A program made the position numbers and the translations under genes. From a virus, in IMG/VR virus record IMGVR_UViG_3300027708_000032, positions 1-64,000 of that record: a stretch of 64,000 nt of DNA; one strand, 5' to 3'. Shown piece by piece: positions 2,866 through 32,605 of the stretch (position 1 is the stretch's first letter; the number at the start of each line of letters is the position of its first letter). The notes under the pieces were generated by a model, which was not told the DNA's origin, did no database searches, and was given only the letters and a program-made list of their open reading frames with translations.

Positions 2866-2929
2866 TTGAACCTAATAAAGGTTTTGAGCCTTTCACATGA
2901 TCAGTGTGGTGTGTCTACACACAATAGGT
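2866..2929 (-). ncRNA. tRNA-like four-way-junction element (GAT in anticodon-like loop)
   Basis: Minus strand reads ACCTATT GTGTG-TAGA-CACAC CACA-CTGATCA-TGTG AAAGG-CTCAAAA-CCTTT ATTAGGT TCAA. Confidence 0.55.
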
Positions 2930-2950
2930 GGGAGGGGATGAAATAAATAA

Positions 2951-2976
2951 GTAGAGGATCTTACGGGACCCTCTAC
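2951..2976 (-). terminator. hairpin / probable terminator with CCGTAA loop
   Basis: GTAGAGG...CCTCTAC stem followed by TTATTTATTT on the minus strand. Confidence 0.5.
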
Positions 2977-2984
2977 AAATTTTA

Positions 2985-3128
2985 TTATTTCTTTTTCTTC
3001 ATTCCAACTGCTGTAGACATTACTACACCTTTTCCTGCATTCATACCAACCTTAACACCTTTAGAGCCAGGTTTCATTTGAGCAGTTTTAGGAGCTACAG
3101 CTTTTGGAGTTTTTGGATTACCAGCCAT
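2985..3128 (-). CDS. small basic protein, 47 aa
   Basis: Manual translation MAGNPKTPKAVAPKTAQMKPGSKGVKVGMNAGKGVVMSTAVGMKKKK. Confidence 0.7.
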   Translation of the reverse strand: MAGNPKTPKAVAPKTAQMKPGSKGVKVGMNAGKGVVMSTAVGMKKKK

Positions 3129-3164
3129 TGTTTTATATTTAAATTGTGATTAAACTATATAATG

Positions 3165-3198
3165 ACCTGCTAGCAGTTCTTACGGTATGCTAGCAGGT
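3165..3198 (-). promoter_or_regulatory. 11-bp stem hairpin directly after the MCP stop
   Basis: ACCTGCTAGCA/TGCTAGCAGGT; loop contains CCGTAAGA; no U-tract. Confidence 0.5.
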
Positions 3199-3208
3199 AC
3201 TGTTATAA

Positions 3209-4828: not shown

Positions 4829-4856
4829 AGGGCTTAAAATTTAAGGGTTAATAAAA

Positions 4857-6107
4857 TTATCGTTTAAAAATATTTTGTGGTCTAGCTATTTTTCTAGACT
4901 TTGTTTGTTCTTCTTCTTCATATGTAGAAGCATACTTACGAGACTGTTCTGTTTTGAGCTGTCTCACTGTTTGTTCTACTGCTGCATTCTTTCCCTGTTT
5001 TCTTAAAGAATCTCTATAATCATCAGGGTTAGATAGTAACCAAAGAGCTTCTGCAATCAATGGATAGTTAGGTTCTACAAACTGATACTTCTCTAAAAGG
5101 TGTCCCAACAAGTTAGTTGGTTTACCAGATATAGAAGGATACTGAGGTTGAACCAATCCACTATATAACTGAGCTTGAACTTTTTTATCTAGTTTCAGTC
5201 CGTTAATTTCTGCAGGTCTAAGAGCTTCAAAGACATTCTTCATGTACGCATCTGCTGCGTTTTCTTGTTGTTGTCTTTTATATTCTTGTTCAGCTAACTG
5301 AGCTTGAACAATCTGTTCGTGCATAGAATCAAGCTTTGGCTTAAACTGCTTAGCTTTCTTTTCAAGTACACCAAGATCTTTCCATGTTACAACTTCTTCT
5401 TCTATTTCTTCAGGAGATCCAAAGTTTGTAGCTTGTAAATATTGTCTAACAATGAACTCTTGATCATTATCATCTCTAGGATCCATTTCTCTTACAGCTT
5501 CCACTTGAGCTAAAGCAGCAAATAATCCTTTAAGATCAGAACCACCATCTGCTACATATTTAGCAGCATATTGTAATTCTTCTGGAAGACTTTGAAAGAA
5601 CTCAGCTGGTGTTGATGCAGCCACCTCTTGTTTAAGATTATCTACATTAGCTTTCCAAAGTTCTTCTACGTCTTTTTCTCCAAGACCACCAAGATACTCA
5701 TCTAATGATTGTTTACCTTCATCGTAGTCATCAAAAGCAAACATCTCTTTAGACTCTATCCGTTTTTTTAAGAACTCTACCAATCCAGACTTTTCAGTCT
5801 TTGGTCTACCACCCTTTCCTTTAACTTCATCATCAAATGATTCTGGGGCTACCCCTTCATCTAAAATATCTGTAAGAAGTTCTTTTGCTGTTTCACGTGA
5901 AACTTCTTTTTCTTTTTCTTCTACACCTTTTTGAGATCCATCAGGATCTAAAAAAGAAAGATCAGCTCCTTTCTTTGTAAAGATGTTTGGTTTAATCTCT
6001 GTAGGTTCCCCAGACGGTGTTACAATACTATCGGCTCCAGGAGCTCCAGAAAATAAACTGTCAATGTCAAGGTCTATCTGTTGTACAGATGTTTGGTTAT
6101 CAATCAT
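4857..6107 (-). CDS. conserved acidic helical protein between portal and MCP (putative scaffold)
   Basis: 416 aa; acidic N-terminus, coiled-coil; conserved crAss-like gene order. Confidence 0.6.
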   Translation of the reverse strand: MIDNQTSVQQIDLDIDSLFSGAPGADSIVTPSGEPTEIKPNIFTKKGADLSFLDPDGSQKGVEEKEKEVSRETAKELLTDILDEGVAPESFDDEVKGKGGRPKTEKSGLVEFLKKRIESKEMFAFDDYDEGKQSLDEYLGGLGEKDVEELWKANVDNLKQEVAASTPAEFFQSLPEELQYAAKYVADGGSDLKGLFAALAQVEAVREMDPRDDNDQEFIVRQYLQATNFGSPEEIEEEVVTWKDLGVLEKKAKQFKPKLDSMHEQIVQAQLAEQEYKRQQQENAADAYMKNVFEALRPAEINGLKLDKKVQAQLYSGLVQPQYPSISGKPTNLLGHLLEKYQFVEPNYPLIAEALWLLSNPDDYRDSLRKQGKNAAVEQTVRQLKTEQSRKYASTYEEEEQTKSRKIARPQNIFKR

Positions 6108-6216
6108 AATGTTTGGTTTTTTGTTTATCTCTACAGTAAAAATATACTAATTTAAACTATAAAAATTTAAAATTATTTCTTTGAAATATCAAAGCAACGG
6201 ATTATAGAGCTATAAT

Positions 6217-8967
6217 TTATTTCTTTTTTTCCGCTGGCTTCTTTACGTCATACTTATTTTTATTTTCTCTAGCAATCTGTAATTGCTTATCAGCTATTTC
6301 TTTTTGTGTCTGAAGTCTACGTTCTTCTACATTAAGCTTTTGCTGAGTCATCATGGTCTTATTAGTTTCCTGATCTCTTTTAAGATTCATTTGATCTTGG
6401 TGTTGTTGATCAGCTCTAATATTTTCTAAAGCATCCATATAGTCAGACTGCTTATTTTCATTAATATCTACAGTGGAACCATAGCCAGCTGCTTTAATTT
6501 GTGCTTCTTCTATCTTAGCATCTCTATCTTTCTGGTTTTCCTCAGCTTCAAACTGTTGAGCCATCTGCATTTGTTGTTGCTGAGCCTGAAGCTGTTCTTG
6601 TTGCATCTGCTGCTGTTGCTGCATTTCAGCTTGTTTCTGAGCCTGCATTTTTTCTTCAGACTTCTTAAGAACACCAGTAAGTTCAGCAATACTCTCAGAC
6701 TTAATAACATTACCAAGATCATATATAGAAGCACCCATTGTGTTATTCTGTATAGCCAATTGCTTTAGTTGTTCTAATATAGCTCTAGAATTAGTCTTAG
6801 TGGTGCAGAATATATTAAGATCTCTCATCAAAAGATCTGTACCATTCATCTGAAAGTTTACTTTTTCGTCTGTACTTGTAATATACTGAAGACGCACACT
6901 AGGTTTTGTAGAATGATAATACTGAGCCAAGTCAGTACGCATCTGATGTACGCGAGGCATTAGGTTGTCACTATGCTGTACAAAGTATTGTTCTGTCTGA
7001 GCATAAGAAGCTGTCATAGCTTGTTCTATACCAGTGGCTGTTTGTTGTTGAGCAATAGGCTGACCCATACGTTGTTGATTAAGTCCTATTACAGCAAAAG
7101 CTTCATTCTTAAAATAGTTAGCCAACTGTATTCTAGACATTAAACGTTGTGTCTGTTCTAGATTTAACACTTGATAGTGTTGGAAAGATAGAGGATTTTC
7201 AGTGTTAGTAATAGTGGTATCCAATGGTAACATCTGAAAGTTCTTCATGGCTACATATGCCTTAGATAGATTGTTCTTTCCCCAATCTTCTCCTAATGAG
7301 TGACGTGGTAGGGCATTCTGATCTAACATGATAACAGTACCTAATTCATCTACTAAGATGTCAGCTATCTGATTATTTACAATATTATAACCAATCTGAA
7401 ATGGTTTCATTAAATCTACTAAACTTACTGATCTAGTATTTCTATCTCCAAATATACATCCCTCTACAGGAAGTTTACATCCATATATAGTGGAATCTCC
7501 TTTAAACTGAAAAGGTACACGTCCTGGTTTACCACCTTGTAAACCAAGATATATAGGATTGATACCTCCTGGATTATTCATACCCCAGAATGCAGGTCTG
7601 TTAGGACCAATTTTAATTCCACCCCAGGTTTCATTAATCCATATCCAATCTATATGCTCACCAAACATAAGATTGTCTTTTGTTTTCTGTTTGTAAACTA
7701 CAGTGTTATACTGAGGAGCATCTGTTACTTTATAAGTTTCATCTACAATATCTTGTACAAGATCTCCGTCTTGAGTTATTTTAGTAAGATGGCCCACCTT
7801 TCTTTGACTCTTCCAATAAATTGTAGAAACACGTAACATGTATGACTTACCAAAATCTTGAAGATCTTCAGAGTCTGATAAAATCCATTGTACAATATCT
7901 CCGAACTGAGATCCAGCATCGTACAAAGAAGTAAACTGTCTATAAGCCAACGAAGGCATTTGTGTGTTCCATTCATGAGATCTAGTTGGGTCATAGTATG
8001 TACCATCATTTTGGTATCCTTGTATTGCATATCCTGCAGATCTAGCTGGATATATAGCTTCTAAAGCTTCCAACTGATCTTGGTTCATCATCCAACCAAA
8101 CTTATCTATAACATCTGATATAGACATCATATCCATTTTACCCACCCAGTTACCCTGAGATACATAACGAATGTCTGGAGATTTATGATAAAATGTAAGT
8201 AGAGGATTCCAAAGTTCCACCTCATAATCATCTTCTTTCATATCAAAATGCCAGAACTCTCTGTCTGTAATAAGCATATCTCTAAATGCTCTTTCCTCTA
8301 ACTCTTGCATTTTAAATCTTTCCTCATCTACAGTTTTTTGATGAGCAGCCCACTCTTCTATCATAGAACGATAATCTTTTTTAAAGAATTGTTCTAATTC
8401 TGGAAGTTGTTTTATAGCATCAGGAGACATAGCTTTTTGAGCTTCTTCTGATTTAATATCTTGACCTTGATCAATAAGCTGTATTCCTATTTTTCTTTCT
8501 GCATCTTTAACTAAAATGTCTTCTAACATCTTACGTTTCTCTTCCAACATCTCATTATAAGAAGTGTCATCAGTAGCTCTAAACATAATTTTAGAAGTAC
8601 GTTTAGAAAACTCATTTGTAAGAACATTAACTACACTTGGAATAATAGGATAGAACTTAAGCTCAAATGCTGATACGTCTTCTTTTGTAAGAGTGTCAAT
8701 AAGATCTGCCATTTCATTATCTTCCTCTACAATATAATCCTGTTTGTCTATAATACCTTTAGCTAGTTTATAGTTCTTCATCAAACGTCTAGCGTTTCTT
8801 CTTAACTGTTTCATTCCCTGAAACTCTAACCAATCAAGATTCCAAGCTCTCCACTCTTCATCTTTTTCTTTTTCTGATACAAACTGAAAAGGCTGTATAA
8901 GAGTACCCATCTTGTTGTACTCCACCTTGGCTCCTTTCTTAAGTTGTAGGGCGTTATATATCTGCAT
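6217..8967 (-). CDS. portal protein (crAss-like)
   Basis: 916 aa downstream of TerL; SLVDLMKPFQIGYNIV motif; Gln-rich coiled-coil C-terminus. Confidence 0.85.
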   Translation of the reverse strand: MQIYNALQLKKGAKVEYNKMGTLIQPFQFVSEKEKDEEWRAWNLDWLEFQGMKQLRRNARRLMKNYKLAKGIIDKQDYIVEEDNEMADLIDTLTKEDVSAFELKFYPIIPSVVNVLTNEFSKRTSKIMFRATDDTSYNEMLEEKRKMLEDILVKDAERKIGIQLIDQGQDIKSEEAQKAMSPDAIKQLPELEQFFKKDYRSMIEEWAAHQKTVDEERFKMQELEERAFRDMLITDREFWHFDMKEDDYEVELWNPLLTFYHKSPDIRYVSQGNWVGKMDMMSISDVIDKFGWMMNQDQLEALEAIYPARSAGYAIQGYQNDGTYYDPTRSHEWNTQMPSLAYRQFTSLYDAGSQFGDIVQWILSDSEDLQDFGKSYMLRVSTIYWKSQRKVGHLTKITQDGDLVQDIVDETYKVTDAPQYNTVVYKQKTKDNLMFGEHIDWIWINETWGGIKIGPNRPAFWGMNNPGGINPIYLGLQGGKPGRVPFQFKGDSTIYGCKLPVEGCIFGDRNTRSVSLVDLMKPFQIGYNIVNNQIADILVDELGTVIMLDQNALPRHSLGEDWGKNNLSKAYVAMKNFQMLPLDTTITNTENPLSFQHYQVLNLEQTQRLMSRIQLANYFKNEAFAVIGLNQQRMGQPIAQQQTATGIEQAMTASYAQTEQYFVQHSDNLMPRVHQMRTDLAQYYHSTKPSVRLQYITSTDEKVNFQMNGTDLLMRDLNIFCTTKTNSRAILEQLKQLAIQNNTMGASIYDLGNVIKSESIAELTGVLKKSEEKMQAQKQAEMQQQQQMQQEQLQAQQQQMQMAQQFEAEENQKDRDAKIEEAQIKAAGYGSTVDINENKQSDYMDALENIRADQQHQDQMNLKRDQETNKTMMTQQKLNVEERRLQTQKEIADKQLQIARENKNKYDVKKPAEKKK

Positions 8968-8972
8968 GATTA

Positions 8973-9086
8973 TTAAATAGTTAGTGTGACAAATTCAGCT
9001 GTAGCTGTTGTAACATCAAATCTTACGTTTTCTGTAGACACGCTAACAGAAACATTTGTACTAGGTGTGATTGTAATAGTGTTCAT
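8973..9086 (-). CDS. 37-aa Thr/Val-rich peptide between TerL and portal
   Basis: Manual translation MNTITITPSTNVSVSVSTENVRFDVTTATAEFVTLTI fills the intergenic gap. Confidence 0.55.
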   Translation of the reverse strand: MNTITITPSTNVSVSVSTENVRFDVTTATAEFVTLTI

Positions 9087-13743: not shown

Positions 13744-14027
13744 TATACTTTTTTTAAAAAATCCATATTATGTTTAGCATCTTTAGGTAGTTTTGTCACT
13801 CTATCTGACCAGTCAGATTTATCTATATCATACCCATTACCATTCATAGGATTGTCATACATTCTTATATCATCACTATAAAAGTGTTTTATATGACCAC
13901 CAGGTAGTCTAACTACCCACACAGTATTTACATTTAGTCCATAGTCTATAATCATTATAGCCTCACCATCTCCATGATCTTTACATACCACTGGTATTGT
14001 AGGATTTAGTTGTAATATCATAATCAT
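13743..14027 (-). CDS. hypothetical phage protein
   Basis: ORF track; LQLNPTIPV...IIDYG...WVV pattern seen in environmental phages. Confidence 0.6.
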   Translation of the reverse strand: MIMILQLNPTIPVVCKDHGDGEAIMIIDYGLNVNTVWVVRLPGGHIKHFYSDDIRMYDNPMNGNGYDIDKSDWSDRVTKLPKDAKHNMDFLKKV

Positions 14028-14860
14028 TTTGCTTTTATTTTACTTCTATTATCTTCTAACCAATGTATTACAGCAATTGCTTCCTGCTTTAAATATGGTA
14101 GGTCATACTGCACTATATCTGTGACAATAGGATTACCATGAGTATCACGAGCAGATATAGGATTATTAAAAACATCTCTACCTGCTTCTTCGAACAGTAT
14201 GTGATGAATTGTAAGAATGCCAGGGCTAAGCTTAGGATTGTGCTTAAGAATAATATACATATACATGCTAAGCTGAAGAGCATAATGGTTAAGATGACAA
14301 TCGTCCAAGTGAGACACTGGACCAGACATCTTCTGTGTTTTTCCTTCCCAGTTTGTAAAACCTTCAACTTTAATCTCTTTATTAGTTTTATAATCTGTTA
14401 TGTGCACCACCCCGTTCACCACCTCTACCAAATCAGACTGACCACATACGCCAGCAGATCTGAGGTACACCATATGTTCTGGATAGACACCATCTTTAAG
14501 TTTTTGTTCTGGTGAGTATTTAATACCCTCTTTCTCTATGGGTTTAAATATAGGAATAGTGAACCCGTGTCTTTCCATATTCTCTATCTCACATATATCA
14601 GTCTCACGTTGGTTATGATACCATGTACCAAGATCAGTGGCTCTCTTAGCCTCACTTTTCCAGGCTTCCTTAATATCTTCTGGTGTCATACCATACCACT
14701 TACTCTTTTTATTTTTAGAAGACTTCACTGCTATAGTGTCTGCGTCAAATGGTTGTTTAAAATTAGAAATCAAACTTGTCACACTCAGCCAATCTTTCTC
14801 ATCTTCTGGTTTAATACTTATATACTTGTGATTGTGTGGTGTGAATTTTAAAAGTGTCAT
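14024..14860 (-). CDS. PD-(D/E)XK exonuclease
   Basis: SVTSLI, GTWYH, CGQSDLV...ITDYKT, YALQLSMY motifs. Confidence 0.8.
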   Translation of the reverse strand: MTLLKFTPHNHKYISIKPEDEKDWLSVTSLISNFKQPFDADTIAVKSSKNKKSKWYGMTPEDIKEAWKSEAKRATDLGTWYHNQRETDICEIENMERHGFTIPIFKPIEKEGIKYSPEQKLKDGVYPEHMVYLRSAGVCGQSDLVEVVNGVVHITDYKTNKEIKVEGFTNWEGKTQKMSGPVSHLDDCHLNHYALQLSMYMYIILKHNPKLSPGILTIHHILFEEAGRDVFNNPISARDTHGNPIVTDIVQYDLPYLKQEAIAVIHWLEDNRSKIKAK

Positions 14861-15183
14861 ATGTTTAATTTTTGATTTATTGCATCTTCCTCTTCCTGTG
14901 TAAGTTCAGCTTTCCAATGTCCCATTGGACAATCAGCTGATAAAGATCTAGTTTTAAATCCTAGACTACACCCACATCCTCCTTTATCTTGATTGCAACA
15001 AGGAGATGTTCCTACCACCATACATCCTTTATCATCTTCAGTGTACAAATCACAAAAATGACAAATACTCATTCTAGCTTCTGCAATCTCTTCTACATGT
15101 TCCTTCTTAAATACACTATTCTTCACTCCCTCCAGTATCTGTCCCTTTGCTTTCCAAATCTGTATTATGTTTTTTAGATTCAT
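14857..15183 (-). CDS. Cys-rich Zn-binding protein
   Basis: RMSICHFC...C...CC...CGC...CP..HW. Confidence 0.6.
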   Translation of the reverse strand: MNLKNIIQIWKAKGQILEGVKNSVFKKEHVEEIAEARMSICHFCDLYTEDDKGCMVVGTSPCCNQDKGGCGCSLGFKTRSLSADCPMGHWKAELTQEEEDAINQKLNI

Positions 15184-15538
15184 TCTTGTGTAGTTTTATA
15201 AAATCTTTACGTTGGTTTTCTTCTTCTACAATCTTCTTTAAGTTCTTTAGATCAAACAAACTCTCAGCTGTTTTAAACCTAGCTGTTATTTGTTGCATTC
15301 CTTTTAGTTTATTACTCTCCTCCCACTTCTCTAGCATCTCTATCTTCTCATCTATCTTCCAATGTTTTGTCACAAAATCTCCAAGATTTGTGACATGTAT
15401 TCTGCTGTGAGATAGACCAGACAAACTTTTGCGTATTTCTCTCCAGTAGTAGAGAATAACATCCTCAGCTAATTCTACAGACACATCTGCTTTATTAGCT
15501 ATGATTGGTATGAACTCTTTAGACTTCCTGGGTCGCAA
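15116..15538 (-). CDS. HU/IHF-like DNA-binding protein
   Basis: KEFIPIIANKADVSVELAEDVI...IHVTNLGDF matches the HU/IHF N-terminal pattern; IHF-like genes are usual in this crAss block. Confidence 0.6.
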   Translation of the reverse strand: MRPRKSKEFIPIIANKADVSVELAEDVILYYWREIRKSLSGLSHSRIHVTNLGDFVTKHWKIDEKIEMLEKWEESNKLKGMQQITARFKTAESLFDLKNLKKIVEEENQRKDFIKLHKNESKKHNTDLESKGTDTGGSEE

Positions 15539-15890
15539 TGCTTAAAAATTTATAATCTAAAAAAATGTTCCCCTTAGAGAACACTTTTAAATCTGGATGG
15601 ATGAATATCTTTTTACGGTTCTTTCCTTCCTTCTTTATAAGATGTTTCTTCTCAGCTTTAGTGAGACAGTTACGCACACTCTGTATAGAACTAAATATAT
15701 GTTGGCCATGAGCCTTACTACAGAAAGCAGTTAGTTCTTGGTCTCCCTCTAAAGCCAAATAAGTGAGACAGTTTAAATCTGCCTCACTTACGGATATCTT
15801 GTTTAGATAGCAGTGTGTTAGTATTTGATACTTTACAATATCAAACCTATCCATTTTAACACGTTTATCTATTTGGTTTACTAAAGCCAT
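15519..15890 (-). CDS. putative winged-helix DNA-binding protein
   Basis: SIQSVRNCLTKAEKKHLIKK pattern. Confidence 0.45.
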   Translation of the reverse strand: MALVNQIDKRVKMDRFDIVKYQILTHCYLNKISVSEADLNCLTYLALEGDQELTAFCSKAHGQHIFSSIQSVRNCLTKAEKKHLIKKEGKNRKKIFIHPDLKVFSKGNIFLDYKFLSIATQEV

Positions 15891-16234
15891 TATTTATCTT
15901 TTTTTAAACCCCTTGCTTTAGGAGCTTCTGTTTTTTCTACTAACACTTCGTCACCCACCTTAAACCCTTGTTCAGCTATTTCAGGATTGGCATCCATGTC
16001 TTCCTGTGTAATAACATGAGGCTGAGCATTAGCTGGTGGCTGGGGATTAGTAATCTGAGCTATAAAGCTAAGAGCCTTAAGCTCATCTGCTCTGTACGTA
16101 GCTAGCTTAGTGTTAATCTCCTGAAGTTCTAGCTGTACTTTTTTAACTTCAATCTGTTCTTGTAAAAACTTAATCACCTCTTCTTTAGACGGTGGTGTTT
16201 GAACTGGTTCTTGAGCTGTCGTTTGTTCTGACAT
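15890..16234 (-). CDS. hypothetical coiled-coil protein
   Basis: ORF track; TAATG coupling. Confidence 0.6.
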   Translation of the reverse strand: MSEQTTAQEPVQTPPSKEEVIKFLQEQIEVKKVQLELQEINTKLATYRADELKALSFIAQITNPQPPANAQPHVITQEDMDANPEIAEQGFKVGDEVLVEKTEAPKARGLKKDK

Positions 16235-16253
16235 AATTATTGGTTTTATTGGT

Positions 16254-16562
16254 TTATAATTCTAAATCATTTTCATCAGAGATGTCATCTTCTCTATCAA
16301 GAATACTAAAGTTGTTCCACTGTGTAAACTTCTTAAAGAACTCTTGAGGATCAGTATCTATAATATACGTATCACCACCCCTAGTAAATATAGTGGTGCA
16401 GTTGTATGTTGGAGAGTCTAGCTCATCAGAGCTGAGCTTGGCTGCCTCCACCATATCCATGTCAAATATAAATGGTAACCATTTACCATTATCTTCTATG
16501 CCCAAAGCGTCCATGTCTTTAATGTTCATACTGTGGCATTGTACTTTACATTCGTGTATCAT
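16254..16562 (-). CDS. hypothetical protein
   Basis: Likely start MIHECKVQ (16562), just after the upstream stop. Confidence 0.6.
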   Translation of the reverse strand: MIHECKVQCHSMNIKDMDALGIEDNGKWLPFIFDMDMVEAAKLSSDELDSPTYNCTTIFTRGGDTYIIDTDPQEFFKKFTQWNNFSILDREDDISDENDLEL

Positions 16563-16563
16563 A

Positions 16564-16794
16564 TTATATATGTTGTTTAGGTTTTTGTGATCTATGGTAT
16601 TCTGTATAGTTGATGTATTTAGAACGGTTGGTTGACTTTTCCATTTGATAAGCCATAGCTCTATAGGTCCAACCATCTCTAACGTCTACGACAGGGACTA
16701 CTACTTCTTGACCATACTTGTTTGTAGATATTCTATAATGGGATAGGAGCTCTTCTCCTTCGTCAGTGGTTAGATGTTTAATAGTTGGTTTCAT
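16564..16794 (-). CDS. hypothetical protein
   Basis: ATG directly preceded by GTATATTATATT motif. Confidence 0.5.
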   Translation of the reverse strand: MKPTIKHLTTDEGEELLSHYRISTNKYGQEVVVPVVDVRDGWTYRAMAYQMEKSTNRSKYINYTEYHRSQKPKQHI

Positions 16795-16806
16795 AATATA
16801 ATATAC
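16795..16806 (-). promoter_or_regulatory. candidate late-promoter motif GTATATTATATT
   Basis: Identical 12-mer also at 17397 and 50401, each heading minus-strand late genes. Confidence 0.55.
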
Positions 16807-16891: not shown

Positions 16892-16913
16892 GCCCTTAGA
16901 TTTCTCTAAGGGC
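16892..16913. terminator. hairpin (GAAA loop on minus strand)
   Basis: GCCCTTAGA-TTTC-TCTAAGGGC downstream of 16943..17380. Confidence 0.6.
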
Positions 16914-16942
16914 CTTGTTATATATTTCATAGGAATTTTATA

Positions 16943-17380
16943 TTAACACCAATTTGTTCCATTTATAACTCCATTAGTAACCTCACCACCAGTTAATCCA
17001 AGCTTAGTTAAATAGAATATACCATCTTCTAACACTATATGACCCATACCACCTAGTCTAGTGTTAAGAGCATTTAATAATGCACCTATAGTGTTATCTG
17101 CATTAAGTGGAGCAATAGCTGTACTAAAAGTTAAACTGGTACCTCCTAGGCTTCCATCAAAATTAGTATCTATTGTAAGTTCTATGTTATCTGCATTTAC
17201 TAAAGTGTTCATCTTTGCACCACCTCTTACAGATAATGCACCTTGTGCAGTTAGTGCGTATTTAATATTAGTGGGAACATTAAAATTTATATACTCACCT
17301 ACAGCAGGTTTCTTCTCTACTATAGAAGCACCCACTACAGGCTTAGCTCCTTTGCTCTTTTTTACAAAAAATGTTTTCAT
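16943..17380 (-). CDS. putative virion/decoration protein
   Basis: Gly/Thr/Asn-rich; own late-type motif and terminator; N-terminus resembles that of the LCIB protein. Confidence 0.5.
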   Translation of the reverse strand: MKTFFVKKSKGAKPVVGASIVEKKPAVGEYINFNVPTNIKYALTAQGALSVRGGAKMNTLVNADNIELTIDTNFDGSLGGTSLTFSTAIAPLNADNTIGALLNALNTRLGGMGHIVLEDGIFYLTKLGLTGGEVTNGVINGTNWC

Positions 17381-17396
17381 GTCTTATTTAGTTTAT

Positions 17397-17408
17397 AATA
17401 TAATATAC
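17397..17408 (-). promoter_or_regulatory. candidate late-promoter motif GTATATTATATT
   Basis: Exact copy 16 nt upstream of the ATG at 17380. Confidence 0.55.
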
Positions 17409-17552
17409 AATATTTCTCTGTGGTTTTAAAAAATATTTTTCTACCCCCTAGAAAATATAGCGTGTTACAGAATGTGGTTACCTATCCCTGAACCAGCCCT
17501 ACCCTGAATTTGCAGACACGGTACCCCCGTCAAAACCTGCAACAAACATATT

Positions 17553-17870
17553 ATGTCAGAACATTTAAAACAAACTGCAGTAACCTTTAAAGGTTCATTA
17601 ACTCGTCAAAAAGTTCAAGACGGTGTTGTAGTACTCTACTATCGTAACACTTTTAACATTGACGGTAAAACTCACGCTGTGTCGTCACCCGTTGACTTAG
17701 CGGGATTAGACGGAATGGTTCAGTTCGTTAAGAAAGGCGAACCACACCCTTCGGGCACGGGAACTGTAGCTCAAGATGCTTACTCTCTTGTCGAAGTAGT
17801 AAGCATTCAGTCTTTACGTAACCGTACTGAAACTCTTAAGCTTAAGCGTGAAGCTGAAGCATTAGGTTAA
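17553..17870 (+). CDS. hypothetical protein, first gene of plus-strand block
   Basis: 105 aa; distinct codon usage (CGT, TCG, GAC); followed by terminator. Confidence 0.7.
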   Translation: MSEHLKQTAVTFKGSLTRQKVQDGVVVLYYRNTFNIDGKTHAVSSPVDLAGLDGMVQFVKKGEPHPSGTGTVAQDAYSLVEVVSIQSLRNRTETLKLKREAEALG

Positions 17871-17872
17871 TT

Positions 17873-17898
17873 GAAAGGGCTAATGCCCTTTCTTTTTT
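17873..17898 (+). terminator. intrinsic terminator
   Basis: GAAAGGGC-TAAT-GCCCTTTC followed by T-tract. Confidence 0.8.
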
Positions 17899-18151
17899 AT
17901 TATATATACACAACATTACCATACAATCCGCAGATAATCAATGAGTTATGTGTGTCTATATGTGTAGTAGACAACCAACACATCTTTTCTTAAACTATTT
18001 CTATTTAGCTATACAGACCATTTTGGGTCGGATCAGATAGCTATAACTCTTATGTGTTCCTTTCAGAGAGTATAAACAAATGATAAATAACAGAAGGGCA
18101 TGGTAGCTCAACCTTAAAGAGTATGTCTCTCTATAACAGACAACAACAGTT

Positions 18152-18598
18152 ATGAAAAATTTTAATAAAGTTATCACCGTAGAAGTATCAGTAGACTCTA
18201 TTGCTAACATGTTATTAGACTCTATGTCTCCAGAGTTTAAACACAAAGAATTGGTAGCAGAAGCTATAGTAGGTAGAATGATGAACGATGGTTCATTAGG
18301 ATATCTATATAACTCTCTTAATGGTTATCCTACAACTATTGACTTTCAAGTAGGTGATGAAGTTAGTTCTAACTCTGGCTTTAGAGCTTATGCTTATTGG
18401 ACACCTGAGTCTATTGAGAAGAACGACAGCTGTTATGGTTCTGTAAAGAGTGGTAAGATAATAGAGATTAATGAGTATGGAGATCAAAAATTGAGAATAG
18501 AGTATCAGGTTCCTAATAAGAAAGGAGAAATGGATACCAACACTCAATGGGTTAAACATACTGATTGGAACAGAGTGGTTGTAGAAGCTGCTCTATAG
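18152..18598 (+). CDS. hypothetical protein (SH3-like C-terminal part)
   Basis: FQVGDEV...GKIIEI...IEY pattern. Confidence 0.6.
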   Translation: MKNFNKVITVEVSVDSIANMLLDSMSPEFKHKELVAEAIVGRMMNDGSLGYLYNSLNGYPTTIDFQVGDEVSSNSGFRAYAYWTPESIEKNDSCYGSVKSGKIIEINEYGDQKLRIEYQVPNKKGEMDTNTQWVKHTDWNRVVVEAAL

Positions 18599-18688
18599 TT
18601 ATTTAAGGTTGGCTGAACTAGTAATAGGGAGGCCAACCATTTCTTTTTAAAACAAACGGTAAGGCTACCATACACAGCCACAATTAGC

Positions 18689-18988
18689 ATGATGATACAT
18701 TATAACATTGCTAAAAAACAAGAAATTAACCCATTTGATGGTGTTAAAGTAGTAACTCTTTCTAGCTGTTCAAGAGGTAAGGAACTGTTACAGGGCTTCT
18801 TTGATAGAAAGTCTGAAGATAGTGTAGAAACAAGGAAGATAAATGGTTCATGGGTGATAGCCTATGATATTAACCATTTAGATTACACCACTATAATGGA
18901 ATGGTACAGTCCTATCAGAGGTAAGTTCCAGTTTAGAGGACAGTGGATACACTTCACTATAGAAGATGATGTAATGGCTTGTTTCTAA
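18689..18988 (+). CDS. hypothetical protein
   Basis: ORF track; followed by hairpin 18992-19012 plus T-run. Confidence 0.55.
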   Translation: MMIHYNIAKKQEINPFDGVKVVTLSSCSRGKELLQGFFDRKSEDSVETRKINGSWVIAYDINHLDYTTIMEWYSPIRGKFQFRGQWIHFTIEDDVMACF

Positions 18989-19019
18989 AGCATTGGGTGT
19001 GTACAGCCCAATTTTTGCT

Positions 19020-19553
19020 CATAAGGGAGATAAAAGGCTACCGAATGACTAGTGATACTCTAGTTACTGTAATAGAGAGCAATACAGTAGTAAATCTAAT
19101 TATACCTAACAGGATAGGTATGTCCCGTTATCTTAAGTACTGAACATCATAGGGAAAAGGCTCTAAGCATAAGGAGAACAACAATGCTATTAGCTTAAGG
19201 TAAACAAACAAAGTCGTAAGGGGAACATTATGCTGACCCAAGCCATACGTTAAGTGGCTCATTTATGTAACCAACTTCTAATTCCCTGGATCAGGGTTGC
19301 ACCGCTTGTAGGCCATGGTGTGTAATGTAAAACAACCTTCCAATGGTGGTAACGAGCCCACTATTCCTAATGCATCAGATATAATATGTCTGTAGTGAAT
19401 CCACATAAGGGCGTCCACCTTCAACAAGTGGCAGTGGTTATCTACGTCAATGTAACCCTTTAAAAAAGGTTGCGGATATATTACATCTGTTGCATATAGG
19501 AAAAAAACAGGTATGGGACTGAGGCCCTACTAACACATCTAGCGGACCTGTTT
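19020..19553 (+). ncRNA. large (~530 nt) structured non-coding RNA candidate
   Basis: ORF-free; many stems, including ~31-bp helix 19364-19394/19471-19502 with G-U pairs and AAACAGGT/ACCTGTTT. Confidence 0.6.
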
Positions 19554-19601
19554 GTTTTATTTTGTATTCATATTCATCACACCTATAAAAATTCATTAAA
19601 C

Positions 19602-19841
19602 ATGAAAATGGAACTTACACGTAATGCTGACAATAAGATTGTTGGCTACAAGTTAATCAAAGAAGCATCTGATGATGTAGAAACCTTTGAAACGGTTAGA
19701 GACATGTATTTCTGGTCTTTAGATCAGAAGGTATTAGTCTACGATGGTAGAACAAGTGATAAAACAACAGATGAAACTGTTGAACTTATGTTTTCTACCA
19801 AAGAACACCACAAACAAAAGATGGACAAAATTAATTCTTAA
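19602..19841 (+). CDS. hypothetical protein
   Basis: ORF track; A-rich leader. Confidence 0.65.
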   Translation: MKMELTRNADNKIVGYKLIKEASDDVETFETVRDMYFWSLDQKVLVYDGRTSDKTTDETVELMFSTKEHHKQKMDKINS

Positions 19842-19861
19842 CCACCTAAAAATTCATTAAC

Positions 19862-19999
19862 ATGAAACAGGTAACATTAACAATTAAAGAGTTTTATCTC
19901 TTTAAAGACATTGCTCATTTTATATATGAGTTTAGTGTAAACAACAATTTCATCACTATTAAAGCTGATTCCCATCAGTTAGAACTATTGGGCTATTAG
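19862..19999 (+). CDS. small hypothetical protein, 45 aa
   Basis: MKQVTLTIKEFYLFKDIAHF...; leader nearly identical to that of 19602. Confidence 0.55.
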   Translation: MKQVTLTIKEFYLFKDIAHFIYEFSVNNNFITIKADSHQLELLGY

Positions 20000-20000
20000 T

Positions 20001-20225
20001 ATGAAAAAGTTTATCATCTTTTGCAGTACAGCTGCTATACCATTTATACTAGTATGGATGGGTTTTATTCTCACTGGTTTTAGTTACAATCCTTTAGATA
20101 TATTTCAGAACGGAAACTTCTGGGGTGTAAGCGTTCTTTATTGGTTTCTATGGATATGTATGTCTCCACTAATAATGGAGACTATCAACGAAATACATAA
20201 CAAGAAACCAGTGAGTAAAATATAA
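20001..20225 (+). CDS. small membrane protein (2 TM)
   Basis: Two hydrophobic stretches. Confidence 0.6.
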   Translation: MKKFIIFCSTAAIPFILVWMGFILTGFSYNPLDIFQNGNFWGVSVLYWFLWICMSPLIMETINEIHNKKPVSKI

Positions 20226-20495
20226 GATAGTAGGAAGGTTTAGTGTCAACCTCAGAGCTCTTAGAGCAAAAACACTTTTTTATTTCATCATCATTTAAAT
20301 TATATACACTATGAAGTATGTATTAATTTCTCCTGTATGGGCAGTATTGTTTATACTATCTATGTTATTAGGTGGTATTATGTATCTATGGCAGTTTTCT
20401 CAAGATGATTTCTTTAGAGGTGCTAGATATATAAACGAAAACGTAATAAGATTTGGAGACTGGTATTTTAAACATTAATCTTAAAAACATTAAAC

Positions 20496-20744
20496 ATGAC
20501 TATTAAAGAAACAGCACTTAACATTGCTATAATAGTAATACTACTAACAGGATTGGTAGTAAGCTTTATGTACTCTTTTGAACAACGTAGAAAAGTTAAA
20601 GAATTACAGCGTATAAAAGACACTGCAGAATATCAGTTTATCATTACAGATGATAGCATCACTGTATATGATTATGGTAGAACAGTGGGTACGATTAAGT
20701 TAGACGGATCATTAGATAGTCTTATGATAGAAGATAATCAATAA
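20496..20744 (+). CDS. membrane-anchored hypothetical protein
   Basis: N-terminal TM helix. Confidence 0.6.
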   Translation: MTIKETALNIAIIVILLTGLVVSFMYSFEQRRKVKELQRIKDTAEYQFIITDDSITVYDYGRTVGTIKLDGSLDSLMIEDNQ

Positions 20745-20787
20745 TCCTTATATTTGTAACTAATTAACAAACCATAAAAAAACAGCA

Positions 20788-21252
20788 ATGAAAAAATTCA
20801 TTCTTATTCTTGCAGCATGTGCTACAACTACCGCATATGCCCAGAAAACAAAAATGTCCTACAAAGTAGGTGTAGTAACTAGTCTACCAGCTAATGTTAC
20901 AAGCACAAGTATTAATGCTGGTAGCACAATGTTAGAAGCCTCTAAAAAGGTTTCTAAAAAGATTTCTGCAACAGCTAATGTAGGATACATTAGATTAACA
21001 GCTACAGATGCTCCAATTTCACAGATTCCTGTGTTTGTGGGTGCAAGATACTCTGTAACTGATCAGTGGTACTTTGGTGCTGCTGCAGGTGTTACCATCT
21101 CAACCAAAAAGGGATATGGTAGCACAGAGTTTGGCTACAGTCCATACTTAGGTTATCAGAAAGGACATATCAGCGTAGATGCTAGATATTACCTATCTGG
21201 ATTACAAACACCGTTGTCTACTATTGGACTAGTGTTTAGCTACAGTTTATAA
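20788..21252 (+). CDS. outer-membrane beta-barrel protein (8-strand type)
   Basis: Sec signal ending AYA-Q; alternating amphipathic strands (IPVFVGARY, WYFGAAAG, SVDARY); terminal IGLVFSYSL; TAnnTTTG upstream. Confidence 0.75.
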   Translation: MKKFILILAACATTTAYAQKTKMSYKVGVVTSLPANVTSTSINAGSTMLEASKKVSKKISATANVGYIRLTATDAPISQIPVFVGARYSVTDQWYFGAAAGVTISTKKGYGSTEFGYSPYLGYQKGHISVDARYYLSGLQTPLSTIGLVFSYSL

Positions 21253-21268
21253 TTCTTGTTATTTTACC

Positions 21269-21346
21269 ATGAGCCCACTGATGGGCTGTAAACAATACCA
21301 CTATATTAGTATAATGGTAATGTTTAGAGCTCACTGGTGGGCTCAT
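21269..21346. repeat. long imperfect inverted repeat (~32-bp arms)
   Basis: ATGAGCCCACTGATGGGCTGTAAACAATACCA ... TGGTAATGTTTAGAGCTCACTGGTGGGCTCAT. Confidence 0.8.
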
Positions 21347-21615
21347 CCTTTTATGACATCATAACACTTAAAAAACATTTACATGAGTAAATACACCATT
21401 ATTAAAATATTATTGACAATTATTACGCTTGGTAGTTTAGTCTTATTTGCTATGACCTCTTGCCGTACAGGATATGGATGCCATGGTAACCAATCATGGA
21501 AACACATGGAGCGTAGGATAAATAGACCTTATTAAACTCATAAGGTGTATGATGGAGCCCTGAAACTTTTATAAGTGTAGGGGCTCATCTACATTAAACT
21601 TTTAAATATTTAACA

Positions 21616-22362
21616 ATGAAAAAGATAACATTATTAGTTCTTCCTTTTCTTTTTTCTTGTTCTATAGGAACAACAAAAGACGAAGAACATTTAGTTTATG
21701 GAATGGATGATGATATGTATTATTCTAAGCTAAAAACTATTGATCTTATTGAAGCACCCAATGGATATAAAAGAACAATAGTTTCTGATACGTCATTTGG
21801 TACTTTTTTAAGAACTCTTGAGTTATCAAATGATAACACAGTTTATTATTACAATAAAGAAAAAAGAGATGACCAAAATCAGTATGCAGTTATAGCACTG
21901 CCTCTTGATGGTGAGTTAGAGCAGTGTGCAGATTTTGTAATGAAACTTAGAATGTTGTACTTAAGAACTCAGAATAGAGATATTGTATTTTATGACAATG
22001 AAAACGGTGTGTATACATTGTCTAGTCCTTATAATAACTTTGAACAGTATAAACAAACAGTGTTTGGTATGTGTGGTAGCATGTCTTTATGTAAACATTT
22101 ACAACCAAGAGATATAAAAGATATACATATTGGTGATGTTTTTATAAGAGGTGGTTTTCCTGGTCATGTACAAATTGTAATAGATATTGTAGAAAATGCT
22201 GAAGGACATAAGATGTTTATGTTAGCAGAAGGATATACACCAGCTCAAAGTCCGCATATAATTAGAAACTCAAAAGATAATAGTCCATGGTTTAATTGTG
22301 ATGAAAGCATTATAGCTTCTTCTAGTTATTTATTCACTGCATCTGAATTAATGACATGGTAA
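21616..22362 (+). CDS. DUF4846-like lipoprotein (Cys/His NlpC/P60-related fold)
   Basis: Lipobox LFSC; LEQCADFVMKLR; IGDVFIRGGFPGHVQIV; LAEGYTPAQSPH. Confidence 0.7.
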   Translation: MKKITLLVLPFLFSCSIGTTKDEEHLVYGMDDDMYYSKLKTIDLIEAPNGYKRTIVSDTSFGTFLRTLELSNDNTVYYYNKEKRDDQNQYAVIALPLDGELEQCADFVMKLRMLYLRTQNRDIVFYDNENGVYTLSSPYNNFEQYKQTVFGMCGSMSLCKHLQPRDIKDIHIGDVFIRGGFPGHVQIVIDIVENAEGHKMFMLAEGYTPAQSPHIIRNSKDNSPWFNCDESIIASSSYLFTASELMTW

Positions 22363-22374
22363 ATACTAAATTTT

Positions 22375-22602
22375 ATGACTAAAGAACAAGCACAAAGAGA
22401 GACCATAAAACGTTTTACTAATCTTATAGATGGTAAAGTGTTACCGTTTGCATCTGTAGCAACCATTTTAAACTATTATGAGACGTTGTTAGCAGATAAT
22501 AAACCAAATGTAACATCACCATGTAATATTACAAAAAGCTTTGAAGAAGAGTGGGTTAAAGAACTTGAGCAAGAAGCTGCTGAATATGATGGTGATATTT
22601 AA
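22375..22602 (+). CDS. hypothetical protein
   Basis: ORF track. Confidence 0.55.
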   Translation: MTKEQAQRETIKRFTNLIDGKVLPFASVATILNYYETLLADNKPNVTSPCNITKSFEEEWVKELEQEAAEYDGDI

Positions 22603-23657: not shown

Positions 23658-23993
23658 ATGTCAAAAGGACTAAGATTTTACACTAGAGAAGAACTTAATG
23701 CATTACATCAGCTTGCTGTATCAGAAGCTCCTGTTAATAAAAAATTACTTGAACAGTTTTGTAAAGACTATAATAGATCTTTTCATTCTGCAGGATTAAA
23801 AGTTTATGAGTTTAGAAAGAAATTAAACATTGGAAATGCAAAACCTCCAAGAAATAAAACAGTTATGCCTAAAGCAGATCTTGTAAAAGATAGTTCTGTA
23901 GCAAAAATATCAAAGAATGAATTTAAAATTCCAGTAAACAACTGGAACATTACAAATGAAAACGGACAGATGTTTCTAAACATCAAGTTTTAA
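23658..23993 (+). CDS. hypothetical protein (HTH-like N-terminus)
   Basis: FYTREELNAL...YNRSFHS pattern. Confidence 0.55.
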   Translation: MSKGLRFYTREELNALHQLAVSEAPVNKKLLEQFCKDYNRSFHSAGLKVYEFRKKLNIGNAKPPRNKTVMPKADLVKDSSVAKISKNEFKIPVNNWNITNENGQMFLNIKF

Positions 23994-24020
23994 AATAGGT
24001 GAGGCTAGCATAAGCTAGTA

Positions 24021-24284
24021 CCTACATTATCGCGAGTAGTGTAGGAATAAGGGGCACGTTCTTGCTCTAACCAATCCAACTCAGGACACTGATCAACCAT
24101 GAACGTGTGTCTAGACAAGATTCTAGACTAATCAGGGATGAAAACATAACCTGTAATTGTGATCAGCCTATTACACCCTTGTTACGTTGGGACTTTGTCC
24201 TGTATCTACCATATGTGGAGCCTTAGAGCTGCTGCAGTGACTAGTAGTAATACATGCAGGGTGGGTTAAGCCCTGTATTTTTTT
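24021..24284 (+). ncRNA. multi-pseudoknot structured RNA candidate ending in a terminator
   Basis: Nested stems plus four long-range pairings from one loop; ATGCAGGG/CCCTGTAT plus T-tract at the 3' end. Confidence 0.65.
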
Positions 24285-32232: not shown

Positions 32233-32242
32233 AAATCTTATT

Positions 32243-32315
32243 AGTCAGGTAGCTCCAACTCTTAGAGCCTTTGCTTGTAGCAGAGAGTGTGTGGGTGAAA
32301 ATCCCACCCTGACTG
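32243..32315 (+). tRNA. degenerate tRNA, anticodon TGT (Thr)
   Basis: AGTCAGG TA GCTC..GAGC CTTTG-CTTGTAG-CAGAG AGTGT GTGGG-TGAAAAT-CCCAC CCTGACT G; no CCA; N26 missing. Confidence 0.65.
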
Positions 32316-32605
32316 ATTTTTTATATCTTTAACATCAGCTTAAACCTGACATATAACCTATGAAACATCTATTAATATTTCTTAGAATTACAGAAGACAA
32401 TGACTTTTACCACTTAGATGAGGGACTTACAAGAGTACCTTATTTTATAGCTGGAATATTTTTCATACTACTAATACTACGTCTAGTTGAAAATAAGAAA
32501 TAAAATAATATGTTGGTACATGGTGTTTATACATAGAATAGTCTATGTTAAGGATTCTGCTATACATCAATATATAAAACAAGAATATTGTAACCATTGT
32601 AATTT

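What the first reader, a model, noticed from the sequence alone, without database searches (positions are those of the whole stretch)
19020..19553. ~530-nt ORF-free, highly structured RNA candidate
Seen: the longest non-coding gap in the window, more GC-rich than its flanks. Stems include TACTGTA/TACAGTA, TACCTA/TAGGTA, AGCCA/TGGCT, CCCTG/CAGGG and AAACAGGT/ACCTGTTT. A ~31-bp helix (19364-19394 with 19471-19502) has three G-U wobbles that only pair on the plus strand. GAACA recurs three times. Known: phages carry large ornate ncRNAs (ROOL, GOLLD). Inference: a member of such a class or a new one.
Basis: partly seen in the sequence, partly recalled or inferred. Interest (0 to 1): 0.75.

Follow-up and report, generated by a model that had tools for sequence, protein, structure and literature searches.

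The report
New modular structured RNA, crAss-like phages
The gene-free gap in this freshwater crAss-like phage most likely encodes a long, folded non-coding RNA of a family not yet catalogued, which turns up patchily in distantly related phages and whose job is still unknown.

Summary

It is not ROOL, GOLLD, OLE, an intron or any other Rfam 15 family. It is a new family.

- **Core.** A core of about 105 nt (19279-19385) recurs in 10 distinct phage or metagenome loci. Compensatory changes support three hairpins (covariation 0.312 against 0.142 in shuffles, 0 of 500 shuffles as high).
- **5' half.** The 5' 280 nt are conserved, with four compensatory pairs, in one further relative, L351. That relative carries a different cassette in place of two core hairpins.
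- **Distribution.** One copy per genome, always co-oriented with neighbouring genes, with no fixed neighbour gene. It is absent from 40 of 40 close relatives searched, yet present in a phage whose capsid protein is only 25% identical.
- **Expression.** Contigs from four lake RNA libraries contain it.
- **Precedent.** Abundant early long ncRNAs of unknown function are reported in crAss-like phage phi14:2 but do not match this model.

Function is inferred, not shown. The scan had not noted this sequence elsewhere.

The parts
18992..19017 (+). Hairpin ATTGGG/CCCAAT followed by a T-run. Either the terminator of the upstream 99-aa gene or the first hairpin of the RNA unit.
   Evidence: Terminator-like site. 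Kept in L351 with two compensatory pairs (GC to UA, UG to AU).
19027..19160 (+). 5' domain with three hairpins: 19048-19064 (ACTAG/CTAGT), 19065-19089 (TACTGTA/TACAGTA) and 19103-19120 (TACCTA/TAGGTA).
   Evidence: Homologous only to L351. ACTAG/CTAGT becomes AGTGG/CCACT (two compensatory pairs). TACTGTA/TACAGTA is kept with one GC to GU change. The third hairpin is shortened but kept. No match in 45 other related records.
19164..19262 (+). Central domain: AGCAT/ATGCT 19166-19188, the AAGGTAAAC motif 19197-19205, and hairpin HP0 AGCCA/TGGCT 19241-19259.
   Evidence: Nearly identical in L351, and in L018 from 19183. Other groups have hairpins of different sequence at the HP0 position, and a GGTAA motif (by eye). 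The equivalent domain of group C shows two compensatory pairs.
19262..19283 (+). Linker carrying TTTATGTAAC and TAATT.
   Evidence: TTATG/ATATG follows HP0 in groups A, B, C and L351.
19284..19296 (+). HP1 (CCCTG/CAGGG).
   Evidence: Helix 1: 95% of cells paired, and 2 of 4 pairs change on both sides (CCCT/AGGG, CCTT/AAGG, CCTGG/CCAGG, CCAG/CTGG).
19295..19337 (+). Proposed P2: GGTTG 19295-19299 pairing with CAACC 19333-19337.
   Evidence: Invariant in 10 of 10, so there is no covariation (helix 2). It overlaps the last two G of HP1. L351 keeps CAACCTTC without any GGTTG. The pairing is therefore unproven.
19300..19320 (+). HP2: CACC/GGTG stem with the 13-nt loop GCTTGTAGGCCAT (19304-19316).
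   Evidence: Helix 3: 100% paired, and 3 of 4 pairs change on both sides (CACC/GGTG, TACA/TGTA, CATC/GATG). Loop invariance partly reflects how members were found, because the search patterns contained it.
19321..19340 (+). Junction YGTAAT... followed by CAACCTTC.
   Evidence: GTAA and CAACCTTC are invariant in 10 of 10, and also present in L351. CAACCTTC was not part of the pattern that found six of the members.
19343..19364 (+). HP3 (ATGGTGG/CCCACTAT).
   Evidence: A hairpin of differing sequence starts 1-4 nt after CAACCTTC in 11 of 11 members.
19366..19500 (+).
   Evidence: 28 pairs including 3 G-U. The helix base TAA(T)GCA ... TGC(A)T(T) is shared. The helix is long in window, L018, L227 and L121, with different interior sequence. 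It is short (about 5 bp) in L003, L022, L032 and L351, and by eye in L081. A U-rich tract follows in most members.
19505..19564 (+). Terminal hairpin AAACAGGT...ACCTGTTT plus the T-rich tract GTTTTATTTTG. Likely intrinsic terminator and 3' end.
   Evidence: Read from sequence. Identical in L018. The same hairpin follows an unrelated gene in L351, so it is a reusable terminator module.

Best explanation
The gap encodes a stand-alone, plus-strand, structured non-coding RNA of about 540 nt (roughly 19020-19565). It belongs to a previously uncatalogued family found in freshwater crAss-like (Crassvirales) phages of Bacteroidota.

The RNA is modular:
- a variable 5' string of hairpins;
- a central domain ending in hairpin HP0;
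- a conserved core of about 105 nt (HP1, HP2 with a 13-nt loop, a GUAA...CAACCUUC junction, HP3);
- a terminal helix P4 of very variable length;
- a U-rich terminator.

It sits in the early-gene block as an accessory gene that moves between phages independently of any protein gene.

Shown: the structure is conserved, and the sequence is present in contigs of RNA libraries.

Inferred: it acts as RNA in trans. The conserved core would serve as the docking surface for a conserved host or phage partner, during host takeover or counter-defence. P4 with the terminator and the 5' hairpins would give stability and define the ends.

My odds: a real transcribed structured RNA, about 0.85; one that acts in trans rather than in cis, about 0.5; a role specifically in counter-defence or host takeover, about 0.3. 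The confidence figure given for this explanation (0.55) is for the whole statement, including trans action.
For: **Structure.**
- Ten distinct loci carry the core and score 101-125 bits with model R1. The next best score is 21 bits.
- On the model-based alignment, 88.8% of cells pair. Seven of 17 pairs change on both sides. The covariation score is 0.312 against 0.142 +/- 0.025 in shuffles (0 of 500 as high) and 0.04-0.11 when partners are slid.
- HP3 is present in 11 of 11 members with different sequences. The base of P4 is conserved while its length runs from about 5 to about 28 bp.
- The 5' 280 nt are homologous to L351 with 4 compensatory pairs and several GC/GU exchanges. The group C 5' domain has 2 compensatory pairs.

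**Strand.** G-U pairs occur in P4 (3), HP3 and the 5' hairpins. On the other strand these would be C-A mismatches. The element is co-oriented with flanking genes in 10 of 10 loci and in L351.

**Not coding.**
- No ORF of 60 aa or more, under the standard or recoded codes.
- Indels between relatives are not multiples of three.
- tblastn of 185 neighbouring ORFs against the gap gave nothing real.

**Independent gene.**
- No neighbouring protein family travels with it. The same small genes lie upstream in one locus and downstream in another.
- L018 lacks the downstream 79-aa gene.
- One copy per record in the window's genome and in 5 of 5 other records.

**Accessory and mobile.**
- 0 of 40 records with 80-94% identical capsid protein have it.
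- nhmmer with all 11 gaps found nothing in 3 complete relatives, and the positive controls worked.
- It is present in G041, whose capsid protein is 25-27% identical.

**RNA libraries.** Contigs at 99% identity or more from four lake-water metatranscriptome runs cover 18971-19544 in pieces.

**Precedent.** In crAss-like phage phi14:2, two long early intergenic regions are transcribed above most genes and persist. The authors call them long non-coding RNAs of unknown function (passages read from preprint 10.1101/2020.03.07.982082).
Against: - No strand, 5' end or 3' end has been measured. Only assembled contigs were available, and DNA carry-over in the RNA libraries is not excluded (caveats).
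- The sample is small, 11 distinct sequences, several of them close. Window and L018 differ at only about 6 positions from 19240 on.
- Most members were found with patterns that contained the HP2 loop. Its invariance is therefore partly by construction, and L351 shows it can be replaced.
- P2 has no covariation and clashes with HP1.
- The 5' domain is supported by a single relative.
- The energy z-scores barely favour the plus strand.
- No promoter was recognised.
- No partner was found. There is no homologue in 151 Bacteroidota genomes. There is no excess of sites complementary to the loop in 401 genomes: 25 matches against about 75 for the reversed control, by my count of the table. The phage's own genome has none either.
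- Absence from most relatives shows the RNA is dispensable.
Confidence: 0.55

Rival explanations
1. A cis-acting leader. The core acts on the transcribing polymerase or on the P4/U-tract terminator, as a put-like antiterminator or a riboswitch-like attenuator, to control read-through into the next early genes.
For: - It is always co-oriented with and embedded among early genes.
- Its layout is a conserved junction followed by a variable hairpin plus U-tract and then a gene start 40-130 nt later.
- HP0 plus a T-rich tail also scores as terminator-like.
- The GG shared by HP1 and P2 allows alternative pairings.
Against: - The downstream genes are unrelated between loci, unlike riboswitch regulons.
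- The conserved structured sequence extends 150-280 nt upstream of the core.
- No Rfam riboswitch or leader matched.
- The resemblance to put RNA is recalled, not tested.
Confidence: 0.2
2. Two or more separate RNAs rather than one. An upstream RNA of about 200 nt (about 19000-19220) and a downstream RNA carrying the core (about 19185-19565), or a precursor cut into pieces.
For: - Homology breaks fall at module borders. L018 shares only 19179 onwards, and L351 only up to about 19275 plus the 3' part.
- RNA-library contigs break at 19177-19222 in all four runs. The upstream pieces carry higher per-contig depth (13.1, 42.5, 16.8) than the downstream ones (3.9, 3.8, 4.6). The tool warns that contig depth cannot rank parts of a gene, so this is a hint only.
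Against: - Contig ends are not RNA ends.
- No terminator lies at 19180-19220.
- RNAalifold pairs 19030-19042 with 19191-19196 and 19258-19264, across the supposed border. Those pairs are invariant, so this is weak.
Confidence: 0.2
3. An RNA anti-CRISPR or solitary-repeat mimic. The unit GUUG-hairpin-GUAA...CAAC imitates a host CRISPR repeat. Type VI-B repeats of Bacteroidota begin GUUG and end CAAC, by my recollection.
For: The phage carries one copy, in the early region, with a patchy distribution like anti-defence genes. The termini GUUGCA...GUAAAACAAC resemble that repeat class (recalled, not tested by alignment). Racrs are documented; I saw only the search listing and abstract of PMC10651486.
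Against: - The core pattern has 0 matches in one genome for each of 185,579 species.
- R1 gave no real match in 151 Bacteroidota genomes.
- The termini pattern gave only scattered single hits in 80 of 401 genomes, with no genome above 3 and no array.
- The unit is 43 nt with a 13-nt loop and is embedded in a much larger conserved structure.
Confidence: 0.04
4. A DNA-level element: hairpins extruded from DNA that serve as a promoter for the virion RNA polymerase (as in phage N4, recalled), as a replication origin, or as a recombination hotspot.
For: Compensatory changes preserve hairpins equally well in single-stranded DNA. In phi14:2, early promoters lack a recognisable motif. Module borders coincide with recombination joints.
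Against: - G-U pairs (T-G in DNA) are tolerated in several helices on one strand only.
- One copy per genome is too few for early promoters.
- It is absent from complete close relatives, which still need origins and promoters.
- It is present in RNA-library contigs.
Confidence: 0.05
5. Decayed coding sequence or functionless spacer.
For: The region is hypervariable. Small spurious ORFs exist.
Against: - The core is 85-90% identical between phages whose capsid proteins are 25% identical.
- There is covariation.
- There is no protein similarity.
Confidence: 0.01

Closest known systems
Early long non-coding RNAs of crAss-like phage phi14:2 (g004-g005 and g005-g006 intergenic regions; preprint 10.1101/2020.03.07.982082, passages read)
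   Same: Both lie in a crAss-like phage of a Bacteroidota host, in long ORF-free gaps inside the early-gene block, in the same direction as the early genes. Both appear in RNA data, and the function of both is unknown.
   Different: Model R1 finds nothing in phi14:2 1-9000 with filters off; the best score is 17 bits, inside a gene. In what I read, the phi14:2 RNAs have expression data but no comparative structure. This family has comparative structure but only contig-level RNA evidence.
Large ornate orphan RNAs
   Same: Hundreds of nucleotides long, ORF-free, GC-richer than the surroundings, associated with phages, and of unknown function.
   Different: There is no Rfam match even at E up to 10. 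Only about 105 nt are conserved across the family, and the rest is exchangeable modules. It is not next to a tRNA gene; the only one is 13 kb away. Multimer formation was not tested.
Second uncatalogued ncRNA of the same phage at window 24021-24284 (earlier finding e1-6156547)
   Same: Same genome, same early block, about 290 nt, no Rfam family. It is also covered by RNA-library contigs (23942-24241 and others).
   Different: R1 does not match it. I did not compare the two structures further.
RNA anti-CRISPRs (Racrs; PMC10651486, listing and abstract only)
   Same: A small conserved hairpin unit carried singly by phages, with a patchy distribution.
   Different: No matching CRISPR repeat was found in any genome collection searched. 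The unit is part of a much larger conserved RNA.

Membership tests
ROOL / GOLLD / OLE / raiA / HEARO and other Rfam 15 large RNAs | Match to the family covariance model at its gathering score. | tested here: not met
   (whole window, gathering thresholds): only tRNA at 32243-32315. (18800-19800, E up to 10): only MIR7993 at 16.2 bits (gathering score 100) and a 21-nt viral pseudoknot model at 15.6 bits (gathering score 35).
Group I / group II introns | Match to the intron covariance models, and interruption of a host gene. | tested here: not met
   No Rfam match. The flanking ORFs are complete, separate genes, and unrelated across loci.
tRNA / tmRNA-like | Cloverleaf or tmRNA detected by ARAGORN. 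| tested here: not met
   only tRNA-Thr at 32242-32316.
RNA anti-CRISPR (solitary repeat unit) | Close similarity to the repeat of a CRISPR array in host genomes. | tested here: not met
   0 matches in genome contigs. No real R1 match in 151 Bacteroidota genomes. No array-like clustering in 401 genomes. The true host is unknown, so the test is not exhaustive.
crAss-like early long ncRNAs (phi14:2 type) | A long ORF-free gap in the early block, co-oriented with the early genes. | tested here: met
   Crass_capsid Pfam hit at 5.8e-31. The gap lies in a run of small plus-strand genes starting at 17553, next to the minus-strand structural block.
crAss-like early long ncRNAs (phi14:2 type) | High and persistent transcript level during infection. 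| tested here: inconclusive
   Present in contigs of four RNA libraries. Contigs give no level, strand or time course.
crAss-like early long ncRNAs (phi14:2 type) | Sequence or structure homology to the phi14:2 RNAs. | tested here: not met
   R1 on phi14:2 1-9000 with filters off: nothing in 2905-4601.
23S rRNA GTPase-associated-centre mimic (idea from a recalled resemblance) | Significant alignment to 23S rRNA around positions 1050-1110. | tested here: not met
   Best local alignment score to E. coli rrlH was 31, against 28.7 +/- 3.7 for 200 shuffles, and it fell elsewhere in the rRNA.

The most novel reading that the evidence does not exclude
A horizontally mobile 'cassette' RNA. The scaffold is a phage ncRNA of about 400-550 nt (5' hairpins, HP0, the CAACCUUC-HP3 junction, P4 and terminator). 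Exchangeable recognition cassettes of about 50 nt are plugged into it: HP1 plus HP2 with its 13-nt loop in most members, and an unrelated hairpin with an 11-nt loop in L351. The RNA would work as an RNA-only counter-defence or host-takeover factor, and the cassette would set which conserved host protein or RNA is captured.
Probability: 0.15. Interest if true: 0.85.

Novelty: new variant of a known kind. Interest (0 to 1): 0.6.

Why it matters
crAss-like phages are among the most abundant phages known. Their early regions are almost entirely unannotated. The one cultured model studied by RNA-seq makes abundant early long ncRNAs whose function nobody knows.

This finding supplies what those lacked: a family with a comparative structure, defined modules and natural variants. 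The variants include a cassette swap, long and short forms of P4, and presence or absence among near-identical phages. Together they amount to a ready-made mutational series.

If the RNA proves to be a trans-acting host-takeover or anti-defence factor, it would add an RNA-only mechanism to a field dominated by proteins. If it is a cis antiterminator, it would explain how early transcription crosses the many terminators between these small genes.

With the second ncRNA at 24 kb (earlier finding e1-6156547), it suggests that structured RNAs are a regular part of crAss-like early regions.

Tried and rejected
**Similarity searches that found nothing**
- blastn of the gap and of 17000-22000 against 50,697 phage records: no match.
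- The upstream 99-aa protein has no relatives in viral contigs.
- PHROGs: 0 of 10 flanking small proteins belong to a family.
- DNA search of 18990-19262 in 45 related records: 0 matches.
- The early block 16900-22400 in 5 long relatives: one 76-nt match at E 9.5e-4 only.

**Chance pattern hits, discarded after reading them**
- L005, L006 and L009.
- 10 of 13 metagenome hits.
- L023, which lies inside a gene.
- Most of the 119 hits. They belong to a GC-rich coding gene that happens to begin with the complement of the loop.

**Ideas tested and dropped**
- 23S rRNA GAC mimicry: not significant.
- Host homologue: R1 in 5 and then 151 Bacteroidota genomes gave one 28.5-bit hit. It lies inside a 527-aa ORF and lacks HP2, so I read it as chance.
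- Antisense-seed idea: the complement of the 13-nt loop has 25 exact sites in 22 of 401 genomes. That is fewer than the reversed-pattern control, about 75 by my count. The phage's own genome has only 2-mismatch sites inside genes.
- CRISPR-repeat idea: see rival 3.
- A loop-to-CUAAGCA pseudoknot and a CAACCUUC-to-AAGGU pairing, considered by eye: the partners are not kept across members.

**Metatranscriptome details I do not count as evidence**
- The structural-gene block 14000-16800 has no cover in 3 of 4 runs.
- Contig ends fall at 19177-19222.
- Adjacent contigs differ in per-contig depth.
- One X7 contig has a 21-nt-sided joint 19090>19237 and a loose end at 19257 that runs straight into a P4-like arm. 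This suggests a variant without the core.

**Limits of the tools**
- Supplementary files of the phi14:2 preprint (ncRNA coordinates and abundances) were closed.
- Paper searches for a published crAss-like ncRNA family found only that preprint.

Full report
**Setting.** The window is the first 64 kb of a 128,065-bp IMG/VR virus record that CheckV estimates to be complete. It is a crAss-like phage: the 539-aa protein at 3209-4828 matches the Crassvirus major capsid family at 5.8e-31. A 567-aa protein carries a type IX secretion sorting domain, which points to a Bacteroidota host. Runs that hold the sequence are labelled freshwater or lake water. Structural genes run on the minus strand up to 17380. 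From 17553 a block of small plus-strand genes of no known family begins. The finding lies inside that block, between a 99-aa gene (18689-18988) and a 79-aa gene (19602-19841).

**The observation.**
- The gap is 613 nt, the longest ORF-free stretch at a 60-aa cut-off.
- GC is 0.40, against 0.33-0.36 beside it.
- All five short stems are present, and GAACA occurs three times.
- The long helix has 28 pairs with three G-U pairs clustered at its inner end.

Alternative stop-codon readings do not open a gene. Energy alone says little: z is -2.18 on the plus strand and -1.85 on the minus strand.

**Known families.** Rfam 15 gives nothing at gathering thresholds except the tRNA at 32.2 kb. At E up to 10 on 18800-19800 there are two meaningless matches, one of which merely picks up the long hairpin. 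ARAGORN finds no tRNA-like or tmRNA-like gene there. ROOL, GOLLD, OLE and intron membership therefore fail.

**Finding relatives.**
- The downstream 79-aa protein led to L002/L003 (78% identical). In their 720-nt ORF-free gap only 76 nt align with the window, 19279-19353 at 85.5%.
- Exact-pattern scans built from that island added L018 and L022 from metagenomes.
- Further scans added L032, L052, L081, L088, L103 and L121 from IMG/VR.
- The genome collection of 185,579 species has none.
- A covariance model built on the ten sequences (R1) scores them at 101-125 bits and everything else at 21 bits or less.
- There is one copy in the window's genome, and one in each of five other records searched whole.

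**Structure of the core.** On the model-based alignment:
- HP1 pairs in 95% of cells, with two of four pairs changed on both sides.
- HP2 pairs in 100% of cells, with three of four pairs changed on both sides.
- Overall covariation is 0.312, against 0.142 +/- 0.025 in 500 shuffles (none as high) and 0.04-0.11 for slid partners.
- HP3 was poorly aligned there. Folded locally, it is a hairpin of differing sequence starting 1-4 nt after the invariant CAACCUUC in 11 of 11 members.
- The proposed P2 (GGUUG/CAACC) never varies and shares two G with HP1, so it is unproven.

One caveat applies. Most members were fished with patterns containing the HP2 loop, so the loop's invariance is partly by construction. 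GUAA, CAACCUUC and UUCC were not in the pattern, and they are still invariant.

**The long helix.** In every member a helix starts just after HP3 at UAA(U)GCA and closes at UGC(A)U(U).
- It is long, with different interior sequences, in window/L018, L227 (the same record as L103) and L121.
- It is about 5 bp in L003, L022, L032 and L351. In L081 I see the same short stem by eye, though the computed fold differs.
- L052 and L088 have a different pair of hairpins there.
- A U-rich tract follows in most members.
- In the window a further hairpin plus T-tract (19505-19564) follows. The same hairpin ends an unrelated gene in L351, so it is a portable terminator.

**The 5' half.** I first thought only the core was conserved. 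A scan with the HP0 hairpin found L351.
- Its gap is homologous to window 18990-19275.
- RNAalifold finds four compensatory pairs, two in the 18992-19012 hairpin and two in 19048-19064, plus several GC/GU exchanges.
- In the L052/L088/L103/L121 group, conservation begins about 150 nt upstream of the core, and two pairs change on both sides.
- L351 keeps GUAA, CAACCUUC, HP3 and a short P4. It replaces HP1 and HP2 with about 45 unrelated bases that form a 5-bp hairpin with an 11-nt loop, by eye.
- R1 scores L351 at only 16.4 bits, so R1 misses such variants.

**Distribution.**
- The capsid protein has at least 596 relatives in IMG/VR.
- In 40 of the best 80 records (80-94% identical; three at least 90% complete) R1 finds nothing.
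- The whole early block is not conserved at DNA level in five long relatives.
- nhmmer with all eleven 420-600-nt gaps finds nothing in three complete relatives, while controls work.
- Conversely G041, a complete 87-kb phage with terminal repeats whose capsid protein is only 25-27% identical, carries the core at 114 bits.
- No neighbouring protein family is constant. The same small genes appear on either side in different loci, and L018 lacks the 79-aa gene.

This is the pattern of an independently mobile accessory gene.

**Expression.** Contigs at 99% identity or more from four lake-water RNA libraries cover the gap in pieces. The tool warns that contigs show neither strand, ends nor level, and that DNA may be present, so I count this only as presence in RNA libraries. 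The published precedent is stronger. In crAss-like phage phi14:2, two long early intergenic regions are transcribed above most genes from the earliest time point and persist. Early transcripts there have no common promoter motif. R1 does not match phi14:2.

**Function.** Nothing computational identified a partner: no host homologue, no CRISPR repeat, no enriched antisense target, no rRNA mimicry. From the anatomy I favour a stand-alone trans-acting RNA whose conserved core docks a conserved partner. The main rivals are a cis antitermination or attenuation element, and a pair of adjacent RNAs.

**Verdict.** This is a real, new, modular structured-RNA family in crAss-like phages. The ROOL/GOLLD reading is rejected, and the 'new class' reading is supported. 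Function is open.

Noticed in passing
window 19580-19604 and 19841-19864; also L018 and L351: A near-identical A/T-rich motif, (C)ACCTA(T)AAAAATTCATTAA(A)CATG, directly precedes the start codons of two consecutive small genes and of their homologues. L022 has its own repeated pre-ATG motif (TTCTTAACCNCTAAAT) before three genes. It may be a phage-specific translation-initiation or promoter signal.
   Followed up: no
L032 1293-1311, L052 8434-8452 (-), L121 4716-4734; L351 about 1497-1637: A second conserved non-coding module: TAATGCACC...CTCACTTCCCAAGGGTGAG...CAGTTGTA, with a distant complementary arm. It lies near the RNA, downstream in L032 and upstream in L052 and L121. It is absent from the window. 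In L052 it is preceded by what looks like the short P4 plus U-tract tail of another RNA copy.
   Followed up: partly
window 19505-19553 and L351 about 1050-1100 (-): The same terminator hairpin (AACAGGTATGGGACTGAGGCCCTAC...ACCTGTTT) ends the RNA in the window and ends an unrelated protein gene in L351. It is a portable terminator module.
   Followed up: partly
window 23942-24244: The other uncatalogued ncRNA of this genome (earlier finding e1-6156547) is also covered by RNA-library contigs in three of the four runs laid.
   Followed up: no
L022 323-433: A 36-aa ORF with a lipoprotein-type signal peptide (ends ...TSC) lies just upstream of the RNA in L022.
   Followed up: no
Viral contigs: More than 100 small IMG/VR contigs from isolate genomes share a GC-rich gene whose start, read on the other strand, contains the 13-nt HP2 loop sequence. 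I judged this a coincidence.
   Followed up: partly
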